Part shown: one piece after another, positions 3,031 to 47,278 of the stretch | How the letters are laid out: each line of letters begins with the position of its first letter | How positions within the stretch are numbered: the first letter of the stretch is position 1 | Sequence record: OQ031072 | DNA length: 64,000 bases | From: Shigella phage SFPB | Strand: one strand, 5' to 3' | Program-made: the position numbers and the translations under genes | The notes under the pieces: generated by a model | Database searches by the model: none | Told to the model about the DNA's origin: nothing | Seen by the model: only the letters and a program-made list of their open reading frames with translations

Positions 3031-4382
3031 ATGTGGAATCCAATTGTTAATGTAGATATTACATTGAACACAGCAGGAACTACAAGAGAAGGTTTTGGTT
3101 TACCATTATTCCTTGCTTCAACAGATAACTTTGAAGAAAGAATCCGTGGTTATACTTCATTAACAGAAGTAGCTGAAGACTTTGATGAAAGTACTGCTGC
3201 GTATAAAGCTGCAAAACAGCTATGGAGCCAAACTCAAAAGTAACTCAACTGTATATTGGTAGAAGAACTATGCAATATACTGTTTCTATTCCTGACACAG
3301 TGGCTGAAGGAAGTGAATATTCATTGACAGTTGCTATTGGTGGTGGTGTTTCTCAGCCATTCCAGTACACTGCAAAAGAAAGCGACACAGCACTTATTGT
3401 CTTGAATGAGTTTAAATCACAGATTGAAGCAAGCCCAACAATTAAAGATGGTGTTAATGTTAGTGTAACAGGTACTGGTGCTTCTGCGACGATGATTATT
3501 ACTAAAGCTGGTGATAATGACTTCGTAAAAGTAACGTCTATTACACCTACAACATCTATTGCAGCAACAACTGCTGACACGGCTTCCGCTGCTCTGGCAT
3601 CCATTGAAGCATATTCAACAGATTGGTACTTCATCTCAGCAGAAGACAGAACTCAACAGTTTGTCTTGGCAATGGCTTCAGAGATTCAGGCTCGTAAGAA
3701 GATTTTCTTCACAGCTAATGCTGACGTTAAGGCTCTGCAAGGCACTGATTTGACCTCTGCAACAGATGTTCCGGCACAGTTAGCTAAGAGCAAGTACACT
3801 CGTACAGTTTGCTTGTGGCATCACACAGCCGAGTATGACTACCCAGAAATGGCTTACATCGCATATGGTGCTCCATATGATGCAGGTTCAATTGCTTGGG
3901 GTAACGCTCAATTAACTGGTGTTGCAGCATCTCTACAACCTGCTAACCAGAGACCACTGACAAGCATTCAGAAGTCAGCTTTAGATACCCGTAGCTGTAA
4001 CTTCATTGACCTCGATGGTGGGGTTCCTGTAGTGCGTAGAGGTATCACTTCTGGTGGTGAATGGATTGATATTGTACGTGGTGTTGATTGGCTTGAATCT
4101 GATTTGAAAACATCTCTGAGAGACTTGCTAATTAATCAGAAGGGTGGTAAGATTACTTATGATGATACTGGTATTACCCGTATTCGTCAGGTCATTGAAA
4201 CATCTCTTCAGCGAGCAGTTAACAGAAACTTTTTGTCAACTTACACCGTTACTGTTCCTAAAGCCTCACAAGTTGCATTGGCAGATAAGAAAGCACGTAT
4301 CCTGAAAGACGTTACCTTCCACGGTATTCTTGCAGGGGCTATCTTGGATGTTGACTTGAAAGGCACAGTGGCTTACGAATAA
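3031..4382 (+). CDS. putative tail sheath protein, reading frame changes (-1) between about 3207 and 3243 (70-aa ORF 3031..3243 plus 386-aa ORF 3222..4382)
   Basis: Combined size (~456 aa) and position immediately upstream of the tube gene; the 22-nt out-of-frame overlap is atypical for this genome, where neighbours are TAATG/ATGA-coupled. Adding one A at A-run 3213-3216 or 3236-3239 fuses the ORFs. Confidence 0.4.
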
Positions 4383-4396
4383 AGGAGTAATTAGGA

Positions 4397-4843
4397 ATGG
4401 CTATGTATCAGCAATATTCCCCTAAAGATGTAGTTTGTAGCTGGAATGGCATTGCCATTGAAGGTTTTGCACCAGACTCATTCTTGCGTCTTCAGAGAAC
4501 TTCTCCACTTGTTACGCCAGTTGTAGGTGCAGGTGGTCAAGTAGCTCTGACAAGAAATGCAGACAAGACAGGTACGATTGAGATTGAGCTAATGCAGACT
4601 TCTCTATCTAACCAGATGCTTTCTGCAATTCAAGCTAAACAAGATGACATGGAACTTGAAGAAGACATTTCATCTAACTTCGTAATTTATGACCCATCCG
4701 GTTCAGTACTGGCTACAGGTATCAATGCTTGGTTGCAAGAGCTTCCACAGATTGAACTTGGACGTGACCAGAACTCTAAAACTTGGATTTTCGGTTGTGA
4801 GAAGTTAGACTACGCTTCAACAATCCCTGCGTCAAGCGTTTAA
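4397..4843 (+). CDS. putative tail tube protein
   Basis: 148-aa ORF between putative sheath and chaperone/tape-measure genes; SD AAGGAG. Confidence 0.5.
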   Translation: MAMYQQYSPKDVVCSWNGIAIEGFAPDSFLRLQRTSPLVTPVVGAGGQVALTRNADKTGTIEIELMQTSLSNQMLSAIQAKQDDMELEEDISSNFVIYDPSGSVLATGINAWLQELPQIELGRDQNSKTWIFGCEKLDYASTIPASSV

Positions 4844-4854
4844 CAAATCCTAAT

Positions 4855-4894
4855 AAGGGGAGACTGTAAAAGGTCTTCCCCTTTTGTGTTTTTA
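4855..4894 (+). terminator. rho-independent terminator after tube gene
   Basis: AAGGGGAGAC-tgtaaaag-GTCTTCCCC hairpin followed by TTTTGTGTTTTT. Confidence 0.6.
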
Positions 4895-4918: not shown

Positions 4919-5320
4919 ATGAAAACTGAAACTAAAATGATTAATGGCAAGAAGGTAACTATTATTCTTCTTGGAGCTAGAGATGGTATCCGTATCTCTA
5001 TGAAGCTTGGTAAAGCAGTTGTACCAGCATTTGCACAGATGTTCTCTGGTTTAACCTCTAAAGATGGGGAAGCTAAAATCCCATTTAAAGAACTCGTTGA
5101 AGCTTGCTTTGAAAAGGTTGACGAACTAGATATTGATGCAATGGCAGAGACACTATTTCAGGGGGCAACAGTTAATGACTTCCCACTGAAAATTGATAGT
5201 TACTTCCAAGCGAACTACGGTGAATTTATTGACTTCTTAGCTTTTGCTTTGGAGGCAAACTTCGGAAGTTTTTTCGAGGCAAGCATTTTCAAAAGCCTAA
5301 CTTCTCAGCAGGAAGCTTAA
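4919..5320 (+). CDS. tail assembly chaperone (gpG-like)
   Basis: 133-aa acidic ORF immediately upstream of tape measure gene; conserved synteny. Confidence 0.55.
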   Translation: MKTETKMINGKKVTIILLGARDGIRISMKLGKAVVPAFAQMFSGLTSKDGEAKIPFKELVEACFEKVDELDIDAMAETLFQGATVNDFPLKIDSYFQANYGEFIDFLAFALEANFGSFFEASIFKSLTSQQEA

Positions 5321-5556
5321 GTTATTCTATGCAGACCCCGCTGACTGACGGGGCTGTAAAGGCAACTTATGATGAAGCAGATGAGATGAAATTTGTGCTT
5401 GCTATTTATGGTATGGATGGGTGTAAAGAAACACTCAACCAACTTTTTGATATGACCTTCGTTGATTTATTATCTCTACGTCAATATTTAGAAATCCAGA
5501 AGTCATATAAAGAAGAAATGGCTTACAACGAACTCAGAAAAGCAGGTAAAATTTAA
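5233..5556 (+). CDS. -1 frame extension of tail assembly chaperone (gpGT-like; predicted product 4919..5275 joined at -1 to 5275..5556)
   Basis: -1 frame is open from 5233; canonical slippery heptamer T_TTT_TTC at 5269-5275 in the zero frame; extension ends TAATG-coupled to the tape measure start. Confidence 0.5.
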   Translation, partial: LLSFCFGGKLRKFFRGKHFQKPNFSAGSLSYSMQTPLTDGAVKATYDEADEMKFVLAIYGMDGCKETLNQLFDMTFVDLLSLRQYLEIQKSYKEEMAYNELRKAGKI

Positions 5557-7768
5557 TGGCACAATATACAGTTGATAGTTTTATTGTTGAACTTGGATTC
5601 AGTGAAAAGGTTATTAAGGGTTTGCAAAGAGTTGAGAAAATGGCTATGCAGTCTGCTCAACGTATCGAACGCAATATCAATAAAGCCTTTGATGTGAAGC
5701 CTAATAGAAGTTCACAAGACGCTCTAAACAGACTTGTAAAAAACGCTCAGACTGCTTCAGGCAGAATCAATAAATCCCTAAACAATGCTATGAATTTAGA
5801 TTCACAAGGTGTAAAATCACTTCGTAGATTAGAAACACAGGGTAAGAAAACAGCCAAAGAAATTAATAAGGCTCTAAGACAAGCTATGAATGTTGAAGGT
5901 AAAGTCAATGTTCGTGGTGGAGTTGGTAGAGGCCGTGGTAATACTATCCCTCCGGTTGGAGGTGGTGGTTCACCTAGAGTTAGACCTGATATTGCTCAAA
6001 GACAAATGGAAAGAATGTTTAATAACAACTTCTATTCTGGTTTGACTCGTCGTCTTGAAACAATTGGTGGACAAGGTAACCAAATGGCTACTTCCTTCAG
6101 AGGAAGCTTACAAGGAATCTATAATAAGTACAAAGGTAGTGGTAAAGTTGGTGAGTATGAGATGGAAGTCAAGAAACTCATTGACACTACCAAACGTTGG
6201 GTTATTGCAGAAAATGCTAGACTTAAGGCAGTCAGAGAGTCAGCTTGGTTACAAGACAGAGCAAACTCTTCACTAAGACAGCTTGTAGGTGGTTTTGTTT
6301 CAGCGTATGCTATGCTGGAATTAGCTCAGAAGACTATTGATGCAGGTGTAAAGAGACAGTCTGCACAGTTAGCCTCAACAGCTATCTTTGGAGGGGATAC
6401 ACAGCAAGCTAGAATGTTCGCTGCTACGTTCTCTCACCAGATTGGTCAGAACTACACAGACACTATGAAGCAGTACTCAAACTTTGCTGCTGGTGCTCAG
6501 CCAGAGCTTGGTTTCCAAGGTACTCAGGAGTTCTATAAGAACGCTGCAATGTTCTCACGTATTCGTGGGGCTACTGATGAAGACTTGAAAGGTATCATGA
6601 TTGCTTTCCAGCAGATGGCATCTAAAGGTAAGATTCAGGCTGAAGAACTTCGTGGTCAGTTAGGTGACCGTTTAGCAGGTGCTGTTCAGCTATTTGCTGA
6701 TGCTATTGGGAAGACTCCACAAGAACTCGATAAGATGATGAAAGATGGTAAACTTCTTGCAAAAGATGTTCTACCAAAAGTCTCAGAAAGGATGAGAGAA
6801 CTTGTTGAAGCAGCAGGTGGTATGAATGCAGTTTCTAAGCAGACAGCTACCTCTATGGGTCAAGCCAAAGCTATGTGGGACAACACTCTTGTAGCACTCT
6901 TTAACAACTCTAGTGAAGGTATTTCACAACTTTCTAACTCTATTGCAATGTTCTTGCAAGGTTCACTTGGTACATCTCAGGCACTTGGTACAGGTATTGG
7001 TTACCTTTTGAAAGGTGCTAGTAACTTATTAGACTTCGTGACAGATATTATGTACCGCATTTCTTCATTGTACTACACAGCAATGGGTTATTACAAGGAA
7101 ATGGATGCTGGACAGCAGAAGTTAGTGAAAGAAGCTTCAGAGTTCCTTGCAACGGTTGTTGCTATTGGTGGTGCTGTAGCAACGGTTGCTAAAGTGGCGA
7201 AGCTTATCACTGGATTCTTTGATACAGCAATTGTACGAAAGATTCTTCAGAGATTTGGCATTGAGGTGGCTGAGAAAGTTGCACCAAGAGCAGCTCCATT
7301 TTTAATGCCACCTCAAGTAAAGGTAGCCTTGGCAACAATGGCACTATCTAGGTCTTCTGACCCAAATGCGGGGAAGAGATTTAATGAGGTTAATACACCT
7401 AACCCTTTCAATGAAGCTGTTTCAGGAATCACTAATCCAAAACGTCCTATGTTCTTTGACCAGAATGGACAACTCCAGTTTGCACAATACACTACAGATA
7501 CCTCTGGAAATATTCAGAGAGTTGATAACGGTTTGTCGAATTGGGATATTATCATGAACAACCTGTCTGAGTCTCTAAATAACTTTGCAAATAAGTTTAA
7601 TCAGACACCTATGATGATGACTCCTTCTGGACTCCCATTACAAACTAAGCAGACGCTTAACGTTTCCTTTAATCTGGATGGTAAGCAGATTGCTACTAAG
7701 ATGGTGGATATCACTGACAAGAATCAGGAAGATATTCTTTTAAACTCTAGCTACCCAGAGGATGAATA

Positions 7769-7769
<1 letters not shown>
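5556..7769 (+). CDS. tail tape measure protein
   Basis: 737 aa, Gly/Ala/Gln-rich with predicted helical N-terminus and hydrophobic segments; directly follows chaperone pair. Confidence 0.7.
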
Positions 7770-17866: not shown

Positions 17867-18765
17867 CTACTTACCTACTGATAAAGGTGCTTCAATCTTA
17901 CCAGCATGTTTATACCCTTTCAACCCACCTAGAAAGTCATCTGCTGTCATATGTCTCAAGTCTTCAAGAGACTTCAAATCTTGATGAATTTCAAACTTAG
18001 GTGCTGGAAACTCTTCATTACCAAGAAGTTGAAAAACCTGCGACATATGGTTCTGGTATATTTGAGTATCACCATAAGTCCCTATCAGATATCGCGGTGT
18101 ATATCCCGTCAGTTTACACAACACTTCCAAGATAAAGGCATAGGAAGCGATGTTAAACGGTAACCCTAAGAACGTATCACAAGAACGCTGATACCATTTT
18201 AAATCCACCTCATTAGTGTTCGAGATATAAATCTGAAAAAGTACATGACAAGGTGCTAATGCCATAGAGTTACTTGAGATATCTGCTGCATTCCATGCGT
18301 TAACGAGCATGTAACGGTCTGTAGGGGACTTTCTCATCTTCTCTACAAGATTACTCAACTGGTCTACAACAACACCACCATGACCTTCGTAGGCTCTCCA
18401 TTGGACTCCGTAGATTCTTCCTCCAGCGTCCTCCAGCCAATCATTCTCTGTAGCATAGGTTGTTTTCAACCAACGTTTAAAATCATCTGTCCAGATAGTC
18501 CAACGCTCTCCGTCGTTCTCCCCCAAGTTCTGTAACGCAAATGGCCTAGTTGGTTTTCACCGTTCATAAACCATAATGCTTCACCGAGGACTTGACGCAT
18601 AAATGTTTGTTTTGAGGTGATTAATGGGAATCCACTACGCATATCAAAACGGAACTCAGGTGGAGCAAAGGTCGAAATCACTGAGCCAGTTCGGGTTTTA
18701 CGCAACTCACCAACTGATAAAACATGGTTTAAAATAGCTTTGTAGCTTACATCTGCTTGTGACAT
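17867..18765 (-). CDS. thyA: thymidylate synthase, frame interrupted (N-terminal ORF 18466..18765, C-terminal ORF 17867..18526); apparent 1-nt deficit at the G5/C5 run 18520-18524
   Basis: N-terminal part has RTGxG...FPLITSK...LWF; C-terminal part has ...WNAADISSNSMALAPCH...FQ..Y and LGLPFNIASYA; the two ORFs are in different frames. Confidence 0.85.
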
Positions 18766-21440: not shown

Positions 21441-21821
21441 TTATAAACCCATGCAGTGACGATTTTCAATAAAGTATTGAACACCTTTGAAAGACTCACG
21501 CATAAAGTTGTCTTTCACATCTTCTACAGTCTCAATACCTTTGCTATCAAGAAGGTCAACGTTCTGAGTGACCATCTCATCTGCTAATCTGTCATAGTAA
21601 TCTCCCATAAAATGGTAGTTGTAGTCAACCATCTTATCAGTCATTTCTTGAACAGTCTGAGCAGACAACGGTTTAGTCAACTCTCCAGCATTTGAAGCGA
21701 TTTTCTGTACAATCTTACAAGATTCTAAAGCGACACCATTAAAGTTTGCTTCAGGCATCTTCATAGCTGCTGCACTAAAACTCATACCAATAGCAATGAC
21801 ACCAACAAGTAACTTTTTCAT
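21441..21821 (-). CDS. secreted/periplasmic protein with signal peptide; start trimmed to ATG after GGAGG
   Basis: MKKLLVGVIAIGMSFSAAAM signal peptide; SD GGAGG 7 nt upstream. Confidence 0.5.
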   Translation of the reverse strand: MKKLLVGVIAIGMSFSAAAMKMPEANFNGVALESCKIVQKIASNAGELTKPLSAQTVQEMTDKMVDYNYHFMGDYYDRLADEMVTQNVDLLDSKGIETVEDVKDNFMRESFKGVQYFIENRHCMGL

Positions 21822-39215: not shown

Positions 39216-39491
39216 ATGATAGACTTAATAGAATCCGCAAGAAATAAAGCAGAAGGTAAATCTGTTTATCTGATGTATAAGCCAAGAAATACACTTTACT
39301 ATGTTGCCAGTACAGAGGTAATGGTAAAGCAGGATGATGATTCTTGGAAGAAATGTGTGAGATATATTGACTGCTTTAATGGCGGCAAAGAATATGTTAG
39401 AGCACCTGAGTTATTTAATATGGAAAACTGGCTAGTCCTTACAAGACAAGCTGCGAGAGATATGTTCAGAACAGGAAAATTACCAGAATGA
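39216..39491 (+). CDS. hypothetical small protein between nrdA and nrdB; start trimmed
   Basis: SD GGAGAG then ATG 39216; ATGA-coupled to nrdB. Confidence 0.4.
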   Translation: MIDLIESARNKAEGKSVYLMYKPRNTLYYVASTEVMVKQDDDSWKKCVRYIDCFNGGKEYVRAPELFNMENWLVLTRQAARDMFRTGKLPE

Positions 39492-40561
39492 TTAATTCAC
39501 ATCCAATCTTCTTAGGTGAAGAACGTAAGACTTTTGATTCACTTAATAAACACTATCCAAAAATCTTTGAACTGTATAAGCAACAGAAAGCTCAAGACTG
39601 GTCTGAAGAGGAATTTCCATTTGAGCAATCACGCTTAGACTTTGAGAGTGTCCCTCAGTCAATGTCTGGTGTAATGCTTGAGATTCTGAAATGGCAATGG
39701 GAAGCAGATACACAGGTTGCTAAGAGTTTAGCTTTTGCATTTGCACCATTCATCTCTGATGATATCTATGCAACTGCTATCATGAAGCAATCAGAAATTG
39801 AGAACCTTCATGCACTAACTTATTCAGAGATTGTTCGTCAGTGTATCAAGAACCCTGAAACAATCCTTGATGAGATTAACCAGAACGCTGCTGTTCAGGA
39901 CAGATTGAAGACTGTGAACAGAGCACTGGCAGAACTTCTTGACGAAGGTATTAACTATCGTTTAAGCTATGTTCGTCAAGAGCTAATGGAGAAAGACCCT
40001 TTACACTTCCACAAAGTAATCTTAAAAGGTCTCTTTGCAGTAACAGCACTTGAGGGTATTTCCTTCATGGCATCCTTTGCATGTACCTTTGCACTTGATG
40101 CACAAGATAAGTTCCAAGGGATTGCACAAGCAGTACAGAAAATTATGCTTGACGAAATCATTCACACAAAGATTGATATCGAAGCATTAAAAGAAACTTT
40201 GAAAGATGAAGAGTGGCAAGAAGCTTTCCGTCAAGTACTCCCAGAAATTAAAGTAATTCTGGATGAGGTAGTTGAAAGTGAAGAGAAATGGTCTTATTAT
40301 ATTTTCTCTGAAGGACGTGCTGTTGTAGGTTTAAATACAAAACTTCTTCACGAATGGGTTTACTACAACGCTGCTCCATTGTATGATATGTTTGGTATTC
40401 CAAGAGACTTCGTAGCTCCTGAAGAACCACCTTTGAAATATATGATTAAGAAGATGGAAATTGATAAAGAGCAAAACGCTAACCAAGAACAACAAAATGG
40501 TGCGTACCTTTTGAATACCGTTGTTGATGATTTAAATTCAGGATTTTTAGAGGTTCCTTAA
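39488..40561 (+). CDS. nrdB: ribonucleotide reductase class Ia small subunit
   Basis: 357 aa; conserved E/H-containing helices; synteny with nrdA. Confidence 0.85.
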   Translation: MINSHPIFLGEERKTFDSLNKHYPKIFELYKQQKAQDWSEEEFPFEQSRLDFESVPQSMSGVMLEILKWQWEADTQVAKSLAFAFAPFISDDIYATAIMKQSEIENLHALTYSEIVRQCIKNPETILDEINQNAAVQDRLKTVNRALAELLDEGINYRLSYVRQELMEKDPLHFHKVILKGLFAVTALEGISFMASFACTFALDAQDKFQGIAQAVQKIMLDEIIHTKIDIEALKETLKDEEWQEAFRQVLPEIKVILDEVVESEEKWSYYIFSEGRAVVGLNTKLLHEWVYYNAAPLYDMFGIPRDFVAPEEPPLKYMIKKMEIDKEQNANQEQQNGAYLLNTVVDDLNSGFLEVP

Positions 40562-46396: not shown

Positions 46397-47278
46397 ATGA
46401 AAACTACTATTCGAGTTCTACTTAATTCAAATTCCAAAGGTTCTCATCAAGAGACCTTCAACATTATCCAGTTCCCTTCTGGGGAGATTGGTGGTAACTT
46501 CTCAGAAGACTTAGTAGACTTTGCTGAACATGCTGCTGGTAAGATTGAAAACGTAATATTCACTGTACAAGGTTATGACAAAGACACACTCTTTGCATTG
46601 GCTATGGCTAAAGAAGCAATTGACCGTTTGATTCCTCAGAAAGCAACCCTGAAAACTGTTGTCTTTGGATTCTTACCAAATGCTCGCTATGACCGTCACA
46701 TGTTTAAAGGTGATGCAGCAGCACTTAAAGTCTTTGCAAATCTTGTAAATGCTATGGAGTTCGATGCAGTATGTGCTCTGGATACTCACAGTAATGTTGC
46801 AGAGAATTTGTTTAAGAGCTTCTACAACCTCCCTCAAAAAGAGGCAGCAGTCCACTTTGCAAGTGACCCACGCATTGATTACTTAGTGGCTCCAGATGCA
46901 GGTGCAGCTAAGAAGACTGAAGAGGCTGCTAAAGAGGTTGAGAAACCTTACATTACAATGGCTAAGGTACGAAACCTGAAAACTGGTGAAATCACTGGTA
47001 TGCGAATCCTTGATGATGTAGACTTGACAGGTAAGACCGTCATGATTCTGGATGATATCTGTGACGGTGGTCGAACATTTATCGAGGCTGCAAAGTATCT
47101 TCGTGAAGCTGGAGCAGAACGTGTAGAACTGTATGTCACTCATGGGATTTTCTCTAAAGGTGTTGAAAATCTCCTTGACAATGGTATCGACCATATCTAC
47201 ACTACAAACTCACTAGGGGATGAAAAAGACCGTGGTCTTTCCCACTTCTCACAAGTGACCGTAGCAAATATTGAATAA
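46397..47278 (+). CDS. ribose-phosphate pyrophosphokinase (Prs)-family enzyme; candidate ADP-ribose pyrophosphokinase (Adps-like); start trimmed
   Basis: Prs architecture: N-domain FPSGEI, DTHS segment, phosphoribosyltransferase loop GKTVMILDDICDGGRTF. Confidence 0.7.
   Translation: MKTTIRVLLNSNSKGSHQETFNIIQFPSGEIGGNFSEDLVDFAEHAAGKIENVIFTVQGYDKDTLFALAMAKEAIDRLIPQKATLKTVVFGFLPNARYDRHMFKGDAAALKVFANLVNAMEFDAVCALDTHSNVAENLFKSFYNLPQKEAAVHFASDPRIDYLVAPDAGAAKKTEEAAKEVEKPYITMAKVRNLKTGEITGMRILDDVDLTGKTVMILDDICDGGRTFIEAAKYLREAGAERVELYVTHGIFSKGVENLLDNGIDHIYTTNSLGDEKDRGLSHFSQVTVANIE

What the first reader, a model, noticed from the sequence alone, without database searches (positions are those of the whole stretch)
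5233..5556. Candidate -1 programmed frameshift in the tail assembly chaperone (slippery T_TTT_TTC at 5269-5275)
Seen: the chaperone ORF 4919-5320 holds a canonical X_XXY_YYZ heptamer T_TTT_TTC in its zero frame; the -1 frame is open from 5233 through 5556 and ends TAATG-coupled to the tape measure start. Established: tailed phages conserve a G/GT-type -1 frameshift in the gene pair just upstream of the tape measure. Inference: a ~210-aa fusion is made at low frequency.
Basis: partly seen in the sequence, partly recalled or inferred. Interest (0 to 1): 0.55.

Follow-up and report, generated by a model that had tools for sequence, protein, structure and literature searches.

The report
Known tail-chaperone -1 ribosomal frameshift site
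This is the standard low-frequency -1 ribosomal frameshift that tailed phages use to make a long form of their tail assembly chaperone. It is real and strongly conserved, but the same site is already annotated and published for close relatives, so it is ordinary.

Summary
ORF 4919-5320 is a Pfam Phage_TAC_15 tail assembly chaperone. Its zero frame reads AGT TTT TTC, giving T_TTT_TTC at 5269-5275. The -1 frame is open from 5233 to TAA 5554-5556, which overlaps the tape-measure ATG (TAATG). The window is a Mooglevirus-like (Felix O1-type) myophage.
- The heptamer is invariant and in register in 40/40 related loci from five lineages, down to 44% protein identity. It recurs in the same motif in a Vequintavirinae phage and, as T_TTT_TTT, in a Pseudoalteromonas phage.
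- The downstream ORF's ATG is not conserved. Erwinia phages have no usable start before codon 56 of 94.
- Synonymous diversity in the chaperone gene falls from 0.25 to 0.05 exactly at the heptamer.
- In-frame U6 runs are avoided elsewhere in the window.

I found no conserved 3' RNA structure. A strong internal Shine-Dalgarno-like GGAGG lies 12 nt upstream and is a plausible stimulator.

The frameshift is already annotated at this base in Citrobacter phage Michonne. It is stated in the Moogle and Michonne genome papers and in a 2025 comparative study. I found no direct experimental proof. Sf14 virion mass spectrometry detected the -1 ORF product but not the chaperone, which is a loose end. Novelty: already known. 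Interest is low.

The parts
4857..4880 (+). Intrinsic terminator hairpin followed by a T-tract, between the tail tube gene (4397-4843) and the chaperone gene. It is context: it probably lowers transcription into the chaperone/tape-measure genes.
   Evidence: Terminator scan. A terminator is annotated at the same place in phage Michonne.
4919..5320 (+). Tail assembly chaperone gene, short form (TAC-N, lambda gpG-like), 133 aa. This is the zero-frame product.
   Evidence: Pfam PF21822 Phage_TAC_15, E 7.5e-20. PHROG 1613 tail assembly chaperone, E 1.8e-48. It lies between the tube and tape-measure genes.
5252..5256 (+). Internal Shine-Dalgarno-like GGAGG, 12 nt 5' of the heptamer. It is a candidate 5' stimulator of the -1 shift (inferred).
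   Evidence: Predicted duplex with the 16S 3' end is -9.3 kcal/mol, and only 0.5% of random 30-nt windows reach -9 or below. It is conserved in the Mooglevirus, Felixounavirus, Suspvirus and Wc4-1 lineages. Phage H101 has AAGGAG at the same place. It is absent in Kolesnikvirus, A73 and PAK_P3. The 9-14 nt spacing rule comes from PMC5009743.
5269..5275 (+). Slippery heptamer T_TTT_TTC (U_UUU_UUC), the -1 frameshift site. Two tRNA-Phe sit on UUU (P site) and UUC (A site) and re-pair on UUU UUU.
   Evidence: Read directly from the sequence. It is invariant and in register in 40/40 related loci and in A73 and Felix O1. H101 has T_TTT_TTT. Slippage is annotated at the equivalent of window position 5272 in Michonne. 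U_UU.C is the second-best A-site motif in E. coli (PMC4066793).
5275..5320 (+). Dual-coding zone. The zero frame encodes the chaperone C-terminus (EASIFKSLTSQQEA). The -1 frame encodes the start of the linker of the long form (RGKHFQKPNFSAGS...).
   Evidence: Synonymous diversity is 0.055 here against 0.246 upstream, and the lowest sliding window of the whole gene starts at the heptamer. In Erwinia phages the only surviving nucleotide similarity is the island 5258-5298.
5275..5556 (+). -1 frame segment translated after the shift: 93 codons plus TAA. It comprises a disordered linker of about 24 residues and a helical 'T' domain of about 60 residues. The long form is read from 4919-5275, then from 5275-5556 with base 5275 read a second time, and is 212 aa.
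   Evidence: Translation. PHROG 4963 tail assembly chaperone, E 2.4e-51. AlphaFold2 gives pLDDT 40-55 for residues 1-24 and about 95 for residues 41-93. The amino-acid sequence is conserved across genera.
5329..5331 (+). ATG that gene callers use as the start of a separate 75-aa ORF (5329-5556). It is not conserved and is probably not the main route of expression.
   Evidence: The ATG is at a different position in Felixounavirus and is ATA in L030. Kolesnikvirus has no ATG until 120 nt past the TAC stop, and its first ATG/GTG/TTG after the slip site is -1 frame codon 56 of 94. The nearest SD-like AGGAAG in the window ends 12 nt upstream of the ATG.
5554..5558 (+). TAATG junction: the stop of the -1 ORF overlaps the start of the tape measure gene (5556-7769).
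   Evidence: Sequence and ORF list. TMP_3 Pfam and PHROG 4036 hits for 5556-7766.

Best explanation
This is a programmed -1 ribosomal frameshift of the lambda G/GT type in the tail assembly chaperone gene of a Mooglevirus-like (Felix O1-type) myophage. Most ribosomes translate 4919-5320 and release the 133-aa chaperone. A minority slip back one base on U_UUU_UUC (5269-5275), when tRNA-Phe occupies both the P site (UUU) and the A site (UUC). They then continue in the -1 frame to TAA 5554-5556. The result is a 212-aa long form: the first 119 residues of the chaperone, a flexible linker of about 24 residues, and a helical C-terminal domain of about 60 residues. By analogy with lambda (inferred), the shared N-terminal part coats the tape measure protein encoded immediately downstream. 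The C-terminal domain recruits the tail tube protein. The fixed, low shift frequency sets the short-to-long ratio needed for tail assembly. The heptamer is the essential signal. There is no conserved 3' RNA structure. The GGAGG 12 nt upstream may stimulate the shift by pairing with 16S rRNA (inferred). What is shown: the sequence anatomy, its conservation, and the fact that relatives lack an independent start. What is inferred: the shift itself, its efficiency, and the roles of the two products.
For: Anatomy:
- The heptamer is in the zero-frame register, and the -1 frame is open from 36 nt before it to the tape-measure start.
- The upstream ORF is a Pfam Phage_TAC_15 protein, and both ORFs hit PHROG families annotated as tail assembly chaperone.

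Conservation:
- T_TTT_TTC is present in register in 40/40 loci (20 distinct alleles of the region). These span Mooglevirus, Felixounavirus, Suspvirus, Kolesnikvirus and Pectobacterium phage Wc4-1, down to 44% protein identity.
- It recurs in the same motif in Vequintavirinae phage A73 at 25% identity. Pseudoalteromonas phage H101 has T_TTT_TTT there. The preceding codon changes amino acid (Ser, Cys, Gly) but keeps its third-position T.
- In SUSP2 the -1 frame opens only 9 nt before the heptamer. This confines the shift site to 52 nt, and the heptamer is the only canonical site there.
- The +1 frame closes within 6-48 codons of the overlap in the six relatives checked.

No independent start:
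- In Kolesnikvirus the first ATG/GTG/TTG in the -1 frame is codon 56 of 94, inside the conserved helical core.
- L030 has ATA in place of the ATG.

Dual coding and codon usage:
- Synonymous diversity drops from 0.246 to 0.055 starting at the heptamer.
- A 41-nt nucleotide island around the site is all that blastn still finds in Erwinia phages.
- Only 3 of 23 Phe-Phe dicodons in the window's genes start with TTT, although TTT is 58% of Phe codons (P = 1e-5). So in-frame U6 is selected against except here.

Prior work:
- Michonne annotates 'ribosomal slippage' at the same base.
- The frameshift is stated in PMC4319497, PMC4591319 and PMC12846349.
- U_UU.C ranks second among A-site motifs in E. 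coli, and homogeneous U-rich heptamers are frameshift-prone (PMC4066793).
- Sf14 virion mass spectrometry detected the product of the -1 ORF, so that frame is translated (PMC11821841).
Against: - I found no direct demonstration of the fusion protein or of a junction peptide for any Felix O1-like phage.
- In Sf14 virion mass spectrometry the 75-aa ORF product (gp42) was detected but the 133-aa chaperone (gp41) was not. A fusion should give peptides from both parts, and lambda G and GT are absent from virions.
- There is no significant or conserved RNA structure 3' of the site. Z-scores range from -1.5 to +0.6 in nine lineages, and the consensus fold finds nothing downstream.
- The SD-like element is missing in Kolesnikvirus, A73 and PAK_P3, so it cannot be a universal requirement.
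- No natural single-ORF fusion of the two domains was found in two large protein searches.
- An ATG near the chaperone stop exists in the Escherichia, Salmonella, Shigella and Citrobacter lineages, so some independent or re-initiated translation cannot be excluded there.
Confidence: 0.88

Rival explanations
1. There is no frameshift. The -1 ORF is a separate small gene (75 aa, 5329-5556) translated from its own ATG. This could be by re-initiation or coupling after the chaperone stop 8 nt upstream. The heptamer would then be incidental Ser-Phe-Phe coding.
For: Many public records annotate two separate CDS (Sf17, KPS64, Sf14, JH2). An ATG lies 3-9 nt after the chaperone stop in Mooglevirus, Suspvirus and Felixounavirus. 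Sf14 virion mass spectrometry detected gp42 (the small ORF) but not gp41. All database homologues of the T region are short stand-alone ORF calls.
Against: The ATG is not positionally conserved, is ATA in L030, and is absent in Kolesnikvirus. There the first possible start is codon 56 of 94, inside the conserved domain. In the window the nearest SD-like AGGAAG ends 12 nt upstream of the ATG, and Felixounavirus has no SD-like sequence there. This model does not explain why synonymous variation in the chaperone gene collapses from the heptamer onward, why the heptamer is invariant across 25-44% identity relatives while the preceding amino acid changes, or why the -1 frame is always open from the heptamer.
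Confidence: 0.05
2. The long form is made by transcriptional slippage. RNA polymerase adds one extra U on the T6 run (5269-5274), and the altered mRNA is then read normally into the -1 frame. The protein would be identical to the ribosomal frameshift product.
For: The site is a homopolymer run. The protein product (…SFFR…) cannot distinguish the two mechanisms. In distant relatives the conserved element is a T-run (GTTTTT in PAK_P3-like phages) rather than a strict heptamer (PMC12846349).
Against: Known bacterial slippage sites are runs of about 9 A or T (PMC5009743), and this run is T6. The run never lengthens in 35 alleles. It is always in the X_XXY_YYZ register with a C at position 7, which is the efficient ribosomal motif. 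In-frame U6 within Phe-Phe dicodons is avoided elsewhere in the window's genes, which is what selection against ribosomal shifting would produce.
Confidence: 0.04
3. The heptamer and the open -1 frame are coincidental and have no function.
For: In one genome, an in-frame X_XXY_YYZ in a 29-codon overlap is expected 0.09 times by chance. Three other heptamers near gene ends in the window are followed by a long open -1 frame simply because neighbouring genes overlap.
Against: All the comparative evidence argues otherwise: invariance across families, conserved -1 frame protein, suppression of synonymous sites, and the absence of alternative starts.
Confidence: 0.02

Closest known systems
Annotated tape-measure chaperone frameshift of Citrobacter phages Michonne, Mordin and Moogle (Mooglevirus)
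   Same: It is the same gene at 92-95% nucleotide identity, with the same T_TTT_TTC heptamer. The annotated slippage base (record position 47149) corresponds to window 5272, and the -1 ORF and TAATG junction are the same. The frameshift is stated in PMC4319497 and PMC4591319.
   Different: There is no material difference. Those annotations are predictions by homology to the lambda paradigm, not experiments. Closer relatives of the window (Sf14, Sf17, KPS64) annotate two separate genes instead.
Bacteriophage lambda G/GT (Levin 1993; Xu, Hendrix and Duda 2004, 2013, 2014)
   Same: Two overlapping ORFs sit just upstream of the tape measure gene. [quoted passage not shown] No 3' structure is needed in lambda (from my own knowledge), and none is seen here. 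The product is a minor long form sharing the N-terminal chaperone domain. The lambda ratio and roles are described in PMC5009743.
   Different: Lambda is a siphovirus and its slip site is G_GGA_AAG. I found no sequence or PDB fold match linking these proteins to a solved chaperone. Here the heptamer uses tRNA-Phe, and an SD-like GGAGG lies 12 nt upstream. Lambda G and GT are absent from virions, whereas the Sf14 homologue of the -1 ORF was reported in virion mass spectrometry.
Phage P2 E / E+E' frameshift (contractile-tail phage; from my own knowledge, not checked here)
   Same: It is the chaperone pair of a myophage upstream of the tape measure, with a -1 shift on a run of six T (T_TTT_TTG as I recall).
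   Different: The protein family is different and the seventh base differs. The P2 case has experimental support, and this one does not.
Conserved GTTTTT site in TAC-N genes of Vandenendeviridae (Pakpunavirus Adele) and 231 'Andersonviridae' phages (PMC12846349, 2025)
   Same: That paper reports the same conserved T-run near the 3' end of TAC-N genes in the Felix O1-like clade and proposes a -1 frameshift. My loci for PAK_P3, A73 and H101 agree with it.
   Different: In PAK_P3/PAK_P5 the run is T5 (G_GTT_TTT_C), not a canonical X_XXY_YYZ heptamer. The window has the full heptamer.
E. coli dnaX and IS911/IS3 -1 frameshift cassettes
   Same: There is a slippery heptamer with an internal Shine-Dalgarno-like sequence at the 9-14 nt distance that stimulates -1 shifting (PMC5009743).
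   Different: Those cassettes also have a 3' stem-loop or pseudoknot and reach 15-50% efficiency. No 3' structure is found here, and a low efficiency is expected.

Membership tests
G/GT-type tail assembly chaperone -1 programmed frameshift (Xu, Hendrix and Duda 2004) | Two ORFs lie between the major tail/tube gene and the tape measure gene | tested here: met
   Tube-like gene at 4397-4843 (PF11681, PHROG 280), chaperone at 4919-5320, -1 ORF running to 5556, and tape measure at 5556-7769 (PF20155, PHROG 4036).
G/GT-type tail assembly chaperone -1 programmed frameshift (Xu, Hendrix and Duda 2004) | The upstream ORF is a tail assembly chaperone | tested here: met
   Pfam PF21822 Phage_TAC_15, 72 bits against a cut-off of 22. 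PHROG 1613, E 1.8e-48. Fold comparison with solved structures was uninformative, with a best Foldseek E of 1.
G/GT-type tail assembly chaperone -1 programmed frameshift (Xu, Hendrix and Duda 2004) | The second ORF overlaps the first in the -1 frame and does not depend on its own start codon | tested here: met
   The overlap is 88 nt in the window and 52-133 nt in relatives. In Kolesnikvirus there is no ATG/GTG/TTG before codon 56 of 94, and L030 has ATA. The window itself does have an ATG at 5329.
G/GT-type tail assembly chaperone -1 programmed frameshift (Xu, Hendrix and Duda 2004) | A slippery sequence lies in the overlap, in the zero-frame register, and is conserved among relatives | tested here: met
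   T_TTT_TTC in 40/40 loci and in A73, and T_TTT_TTT in H101. Synonymous-site suppression starts at the heptamer.
G/GT-type tail assembly chaperone -1 programmed frameshift (Xu, Hendrix and Duda 2004) | A fusion protein is made at a low, fixed frequency | not testable with these tools
   It needs a reporter assay or proteomics. The only published data found are Sf14 virion mass spectrometry, where the -1 ORF product was detected and the chaperone was not, searched against the annotated proteome.
G/GT-type tail assembly chaperone -1 programmed frameshift (Xu, Hendrix and Duda 2004) | Both forms are needed for tail assembly and are absent from the mature virion | not testable with these tools
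   No genetics is available. The reported detection of Sf14 gp42 in particles does not fit the 'absent from virions' part, if it is not a contaminant.
dnaX/IS-type -1 frameshift cassette (5' SD plus heptamer plus 3' structure) | An internal Shine-Dalgarno-like sequence lies 9-14 nt 5' of the shift site | tested here: met
   GGAGG at 5252-5256, 12 nt upstream, -9.3 kcal/mol, in the top 0.5% of random windows. It is not conserved in all lineages.
dnaX/IS-type -1 frameshift cassette (5' SD plus heptamer plus 3' structure) | A stable stem-loop or pseudoknot lies 5-9 nt 3' of the shift site | tested here: not met
   The 50 nt after the site fold with z = -0.07. Nine lineages give z from -1.5 to +0.6 with no common fold. 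The consensus fold finds nothing downstream. There is no Rfam match. Pseudoknots were not searched explicitly.
Programmed transcriptional slippage | A homopolymer run long enough for RNA polymerase realignment (about 9 A/T in bacteria) | tested here: not met
   The run is exactly T6 in all 35 alleles. The length requirement comes from PMC5009743.

The most novel reading that the evidence does not exclude
The locus may depart from the lambda paradigm in two ways. (1) The shift could be stimulated by a conserved internal Shine-Dalgarno-like GGAGG 12 nt upstream, not by the heptamer alone. (2) The C-terminal 'T' domain could also exist free of the chaperone domain, either by re-initiation at ATG 5329 or by cleavage in the disordered linker, and stay with the finished particle. 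The second point is hinted at by Sf14 virion mass spectrometry, which detected the small ORF product but not the chaperone.
Probability: 0.12. Interest if true: 0.45.

Novelty: already known. Interest (0 to 1): 0.15.

Why it matters
For annotation, it means the 75-aa 'gene' 5329-5556 should be merged into a 212-aa frameshift product. Many Felix O1-like records, including the closest relatives Sf14, Sf17 and KPS64, still list two separate genes or leave the region unannotated. For biology it adds nothing new in kind. It is one more instance of the conserved chaperone frameshift of tailed phages, and it has been predicted at this site since 2015. Three modest points could be of use. The slip site is conserved across several phage families at 25% protein identity. 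In-frame U6 runs within Phe-Phe dicodons are avoided elsewhere in the window's genes. A possible 5' Shine-Dalgarno stimulator could be tested easily in E. coli.

Tried and rejected
1. 3' stimulatory RNA structure. I folded single sequences of 50, 70 and 100 nt after the site in the window and in eight other lineages, made a consensus fold of 12 alleles, and ran an Rfam scan. Nothing was significant or shared.
   - A weak hairpin AAACTT-CGG-AAGTTT overlaps the first bases of the heptamer. It is conserved without covariation and is explained by coding.
   - A GC hairpin at 5337-5357 shows one compensatory change but lies 62 nt downstream and is lost in Felixounavirus. I rejected it as a general stimulator.
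2. 'Rosetta stone' test for a natural single-ORF fusion of the two domains. A word-indexed search with the 212-aa fusion gave 86 hits, all 123-136 aa. Exhaustive HMMER with the T region gave 9 hits, all short ORFs apart from one 1041-aa repetitive protein. No fusion was found.
3. Solved-structure relatives. There was no sequence match. Foldseek gave nothing with E below 1 for either the chaperone model (pLDDT 76) or the T-domain model.
5. Other slip sites in the 88-nt overlap. There is no second X_XXY_YYZ heptamer in frame. One Felixounavirus allele (L019) also has A_AAT_TTC 12 nt upstream, but it is not conserved.
6. Experimental proof in the literature. Six full-text searches found only predictions, plus the Sf14 virion mass spectrometry table. 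The supplement of that paper holds no peptide-level data. The Vladimirov et al. 2022 paper on T4-like chaperones could not be read.

Full report
**What is in the sequence**

The window is a Felix O1-type myophage of the genus Mooglevirus or very close to it. The 4.6 kb around the finding is 97% identical to Shigella phages ESh19, Henu11, KPS64 and Sf14-Sf19, and 92% identical to Citrobacter phages Michonne and Mordin.

The local gene order is as follows:
- tail sheath
- tail tube (4397-4843)
- an intrinsic terminator (4857-4880)
- a 133-aa ORF (4919-5320)
- a 75-aa ORF (5329-5556)
- the 737-aa tape measure protein (5556-7769)

The 133-aa ORF is a tail assembly chaperone: Pfam Phage_TAC_15 at E 7.5e-20, and PHROG 1613 at E 1.8e-48.

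- The zero frame reads AGT TTT TTC at 5267-5275, so T_TTT_TTC at 5269-5275 is in the X_XXY_YYZ register.
- The -1 frame has a TGA at 5230-5232 and is then open to TAA 5554-5556.
- That TAA overlaps the tape-measure ATG (TAATG).
- A shift at the heptamer yields 119 + 93 = 212 residues.

**Is it more than chance?**

Within this genome alone the case is only mild. In-frame X_XXY_YYZ heptamers occur at 0.0031 per codon in the window's ORFs, so 0.09 are expected in a 29-codon overlap. The case rests on comparison.

I collected the locus from 40 relatives: public phage records and IMG/VR contigs, giving 35 distinct chaperone alleles and 20 distinct alleles of the 127-nt region.
- **Heptamer conservation.** T_TTT_TTC is present, in register, in every one. 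The relatives span Mooglevirus, Felixounavirus (including Felix O1 itself), Suspvirus, the Erwinia/Hafnia Kolesnikvirus group and Pectobacterium phage Wc4-1, down to 44% protein identity. The -1 frame always runs from the heptamer to the tape-measure start.
- **Site confinement.** In SUSP2 the -1 frame opens only 9 nt before the heptamer. This confines any shift to a 52-nt stretch with no other canonical site.
- **Nucleotide island.** In Erwinia phages the only nucleotide similarity to the window that blastn still detects is a 41-nt island, 5258-5298, centred on the site.
- **More distant relatives.** Vequintavirinae phage A73 (25% identity) has T_TTT_TTC in the homologous NYGCFF motif. Pseudoalteromonas phage H101 has T_TTT_TTT. 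The codon before the run encodes Ser, Cys or Gly in different lineages but always ends in T. Nankokuvirus PAK_P3/PAK_P5 keeps only a T5 run. All have a -1 frame open for 100-131 codons in all, running from just upstream of the run to at or near the tape-measure start, while the +1 frame closes within 6-48 codons.

**Frameshift or separate gene?**

Many records, including the closest relatives, annotate the 75-aa ORF as its own gene. Four results argue against that as the main route.
1. **The ATG is not conserved.** It sits at a different codon in Felixounavirus and is ATA in contig L030. Kolesnikvirus has no ATG until 120 nt past the chaperone stop. There the first ATG, GTG or TTG in the -1 frame is codon 56 of 94, with no Shine-Dalgarno sequence, inside the most conserved part of the domain.
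2. **Synonymous diversity drops at the heptamer.** It is 0.246 over codons 1-116 and 0.055 over codons 117-131. The lowest 14-codon sliding window of the whole gene begins at codons 115-118, which is at the heptamer. This is expected if the -1 frame is translated from the heptamer onward. It is unexpected if translation of the second frame began after the chaperone stop.
3. **In-frame U6 is avoided elsewhere.** Only 3 of 23 Phe-Phe dicodons in the window's genes start with TTT, although TTT is 58% of Phe codons (binomial P = 1e-5).
4. **The predicted architecture fits a fusion.** The first ~24 residues after the shift are predicted disordered (pLDDT 40-55). Residues 41-93 form a confident helical domain (pLDDT about 95). 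That is the linker-plus-domain layout expected of a G-T fusion.

**Signals**

U_UU.C is the second most shift-prone A-site motif in E. coli after A_AA.G, and homogeneous U-rich heptamers are frameshift-prone (PMC4066793).

I found no 3' stimulatory structure:
- The 50 nt after the site fold no better than shuffles (z = -0.07).
- Nine lineages give z from -1.5 to +0.6 with no shared fold.
- The consensus fold places nothing downstream.
- Rfam has no match.

As far as I know, lambda G/GT also needs only its heptamer.

Upstream there is a strong Shine-Dalgarno-like GGAGG at 5252-5256, 12 nt from the heptamer. Its predicted duplex with the 16S 3' end is -9.3 kcal/mol, a value reached by only 0.5% of random 30-nt windows. 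The spacing falls in the 9-14 nt range reported to stimulate -1 shifting (PMC5009743). It is conserved in four lineages, and H101 has AAGGAG at the same place. It is absent in Kolesnikvirus, A73 and PAK_P3. It is therefore a plausible lineage-specific enhancer, not a requirement.

**Rivals**
- **Transcriptional slippage** would give the same protein. However, the run is only T6 in every allele, while bacterial examples use about nine. The strict heptamer register and the avoidance of in-frame U6 within Phe-Phe dicodons elsewhere in the window also point to the ribosome.
- **Separate-gene expression only** is contradicted by the four results above.
- **Pure coincidence** is excluded by the conservation.

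**What is already known**

Citrobacter phage Michonne (KT001916) carries a joined CDS, 'tape-measure chaperone, ribosomal slippage (47149)'. That position maps to window 5272, inside the heptamer. The Moogle and Michonne genome announcements state the frameshift (PMC4319497, PMC4591319). A 2025 paper reports the conserved GTTTTT run in the TAC-N genes of 231 phages of this clade and in Pakpunavirus relatives (PMC12846349).

I found no experimental demonstration. The nearest data are in the Sf14 structure paper. Virion mass spectrometry detected gp42 (FDI99_gp115, the 75-aa ORF) but not gp41 (FDI99_gp116, the chaperone) (PMC11821841). This shows the -1 frame is translated. It does not show the fusion, it is odd for a pure fusion, and it differs from lambda, where neither form is in virions. 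The search database there was the annotated proteome, so junction peptides could not have been found. The paper's supplement holds no peptide lists.

**Searches that found nothing**
- No natural single-ORF fusion of the two domains exists in either large protein search.
- There is no solved-structure relative by sequence or fold.

**Verdict**

It is an already known, already annotated feature of this phage group, and it is of low interest beyond correcting annotation. Two questions remain open: whether the upstream GGAGG acts as a stimulator, and what form of the T domain was seen in Sf14 particles.

Noticed in passing
window 3031-4382 (break at 3234/3235): The tail sheath gene is split into a 70-aa ORF (3031-3243) and a 386-aa ORF (3222-4382) by a 1-nt deletion: AAACTCCAAAAG in Sf17 is AAACTCAAAAG here. 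All 24 closest public records carry the intact 450-aa gene. It is likely a sequencing or assembly error, or a defective variant. There is no slippery heptamer at the break.
   Followed up: partly
window 4857-4880: An intrinsic terminator hairpin with a T-tract lies between the tail tube gene and the chaperone gene, and is also annotated in phage Michonne. It suggests the chaperone and tape-measure genes are transcribed at a lower level than the sheath and tube genes.
   Followed up: partly
whole window (67 long ORFs): Phe-Phe dicodons are strongly biased against starting with TTT: TTC-TTT 11, TTC-TTC 9, TTT-TTC 2, TTT-TTT 1. TTT is nonetheless 58% of Phe codons (P = 1e-5). This is consistent with selection against in-frame U6 runs outside the chaperone site.
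   Followed up: partly
window 5337-5357: A GC-rich hairpin, CCCCG-CTGACTGA-CGGGG, lies just after ATG 5329, inside the -1 ORF. SUSP2 and contig L013 carry the compensatory pair CCCCA/TGGGG (two synonymous changes). It is lost in Felixounavirus. Its function, if any, is unknown, and it is too far (62 nt) from the slip site to be a classical stimulator.
   Followed up: partly
window 18466-18765 (-), 21441-21821 (-), 39488-40561 (+): Three other in-frame X_XXY_YYZ heptamers (TTTAAAC, GGGTTTA, TTTAAAT) lie 1-8 codons before a gene's stop and are followed by a -1 frame open for 69-202 codons. This is most likely just the next gene overlapping in the -1 frame.
   Followed up: no
L042 (Pseudomonas phage PAK_P3) about 1064-1098: In PAK_P3 a strong GC hairpin (GGGGGGUGACC...GGUACACCCCC) lies about 35-60 nt downstream of the T5 run, spanning the end of the chaperone gene. 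No counterpart exists in the window's lineage.
   Followed up: no
Sf14 literature (PMC11821841, Table 1) versus window 4919-5556: Virion mass spectrometry of Sf14, 97% identical to the window across this region, reports the 75-aa -1 ORF product as detected and the 133-aa chaperone as not detected. This is unexpected under the lambda model, in which neither form is in particles.
   Followed up: partly
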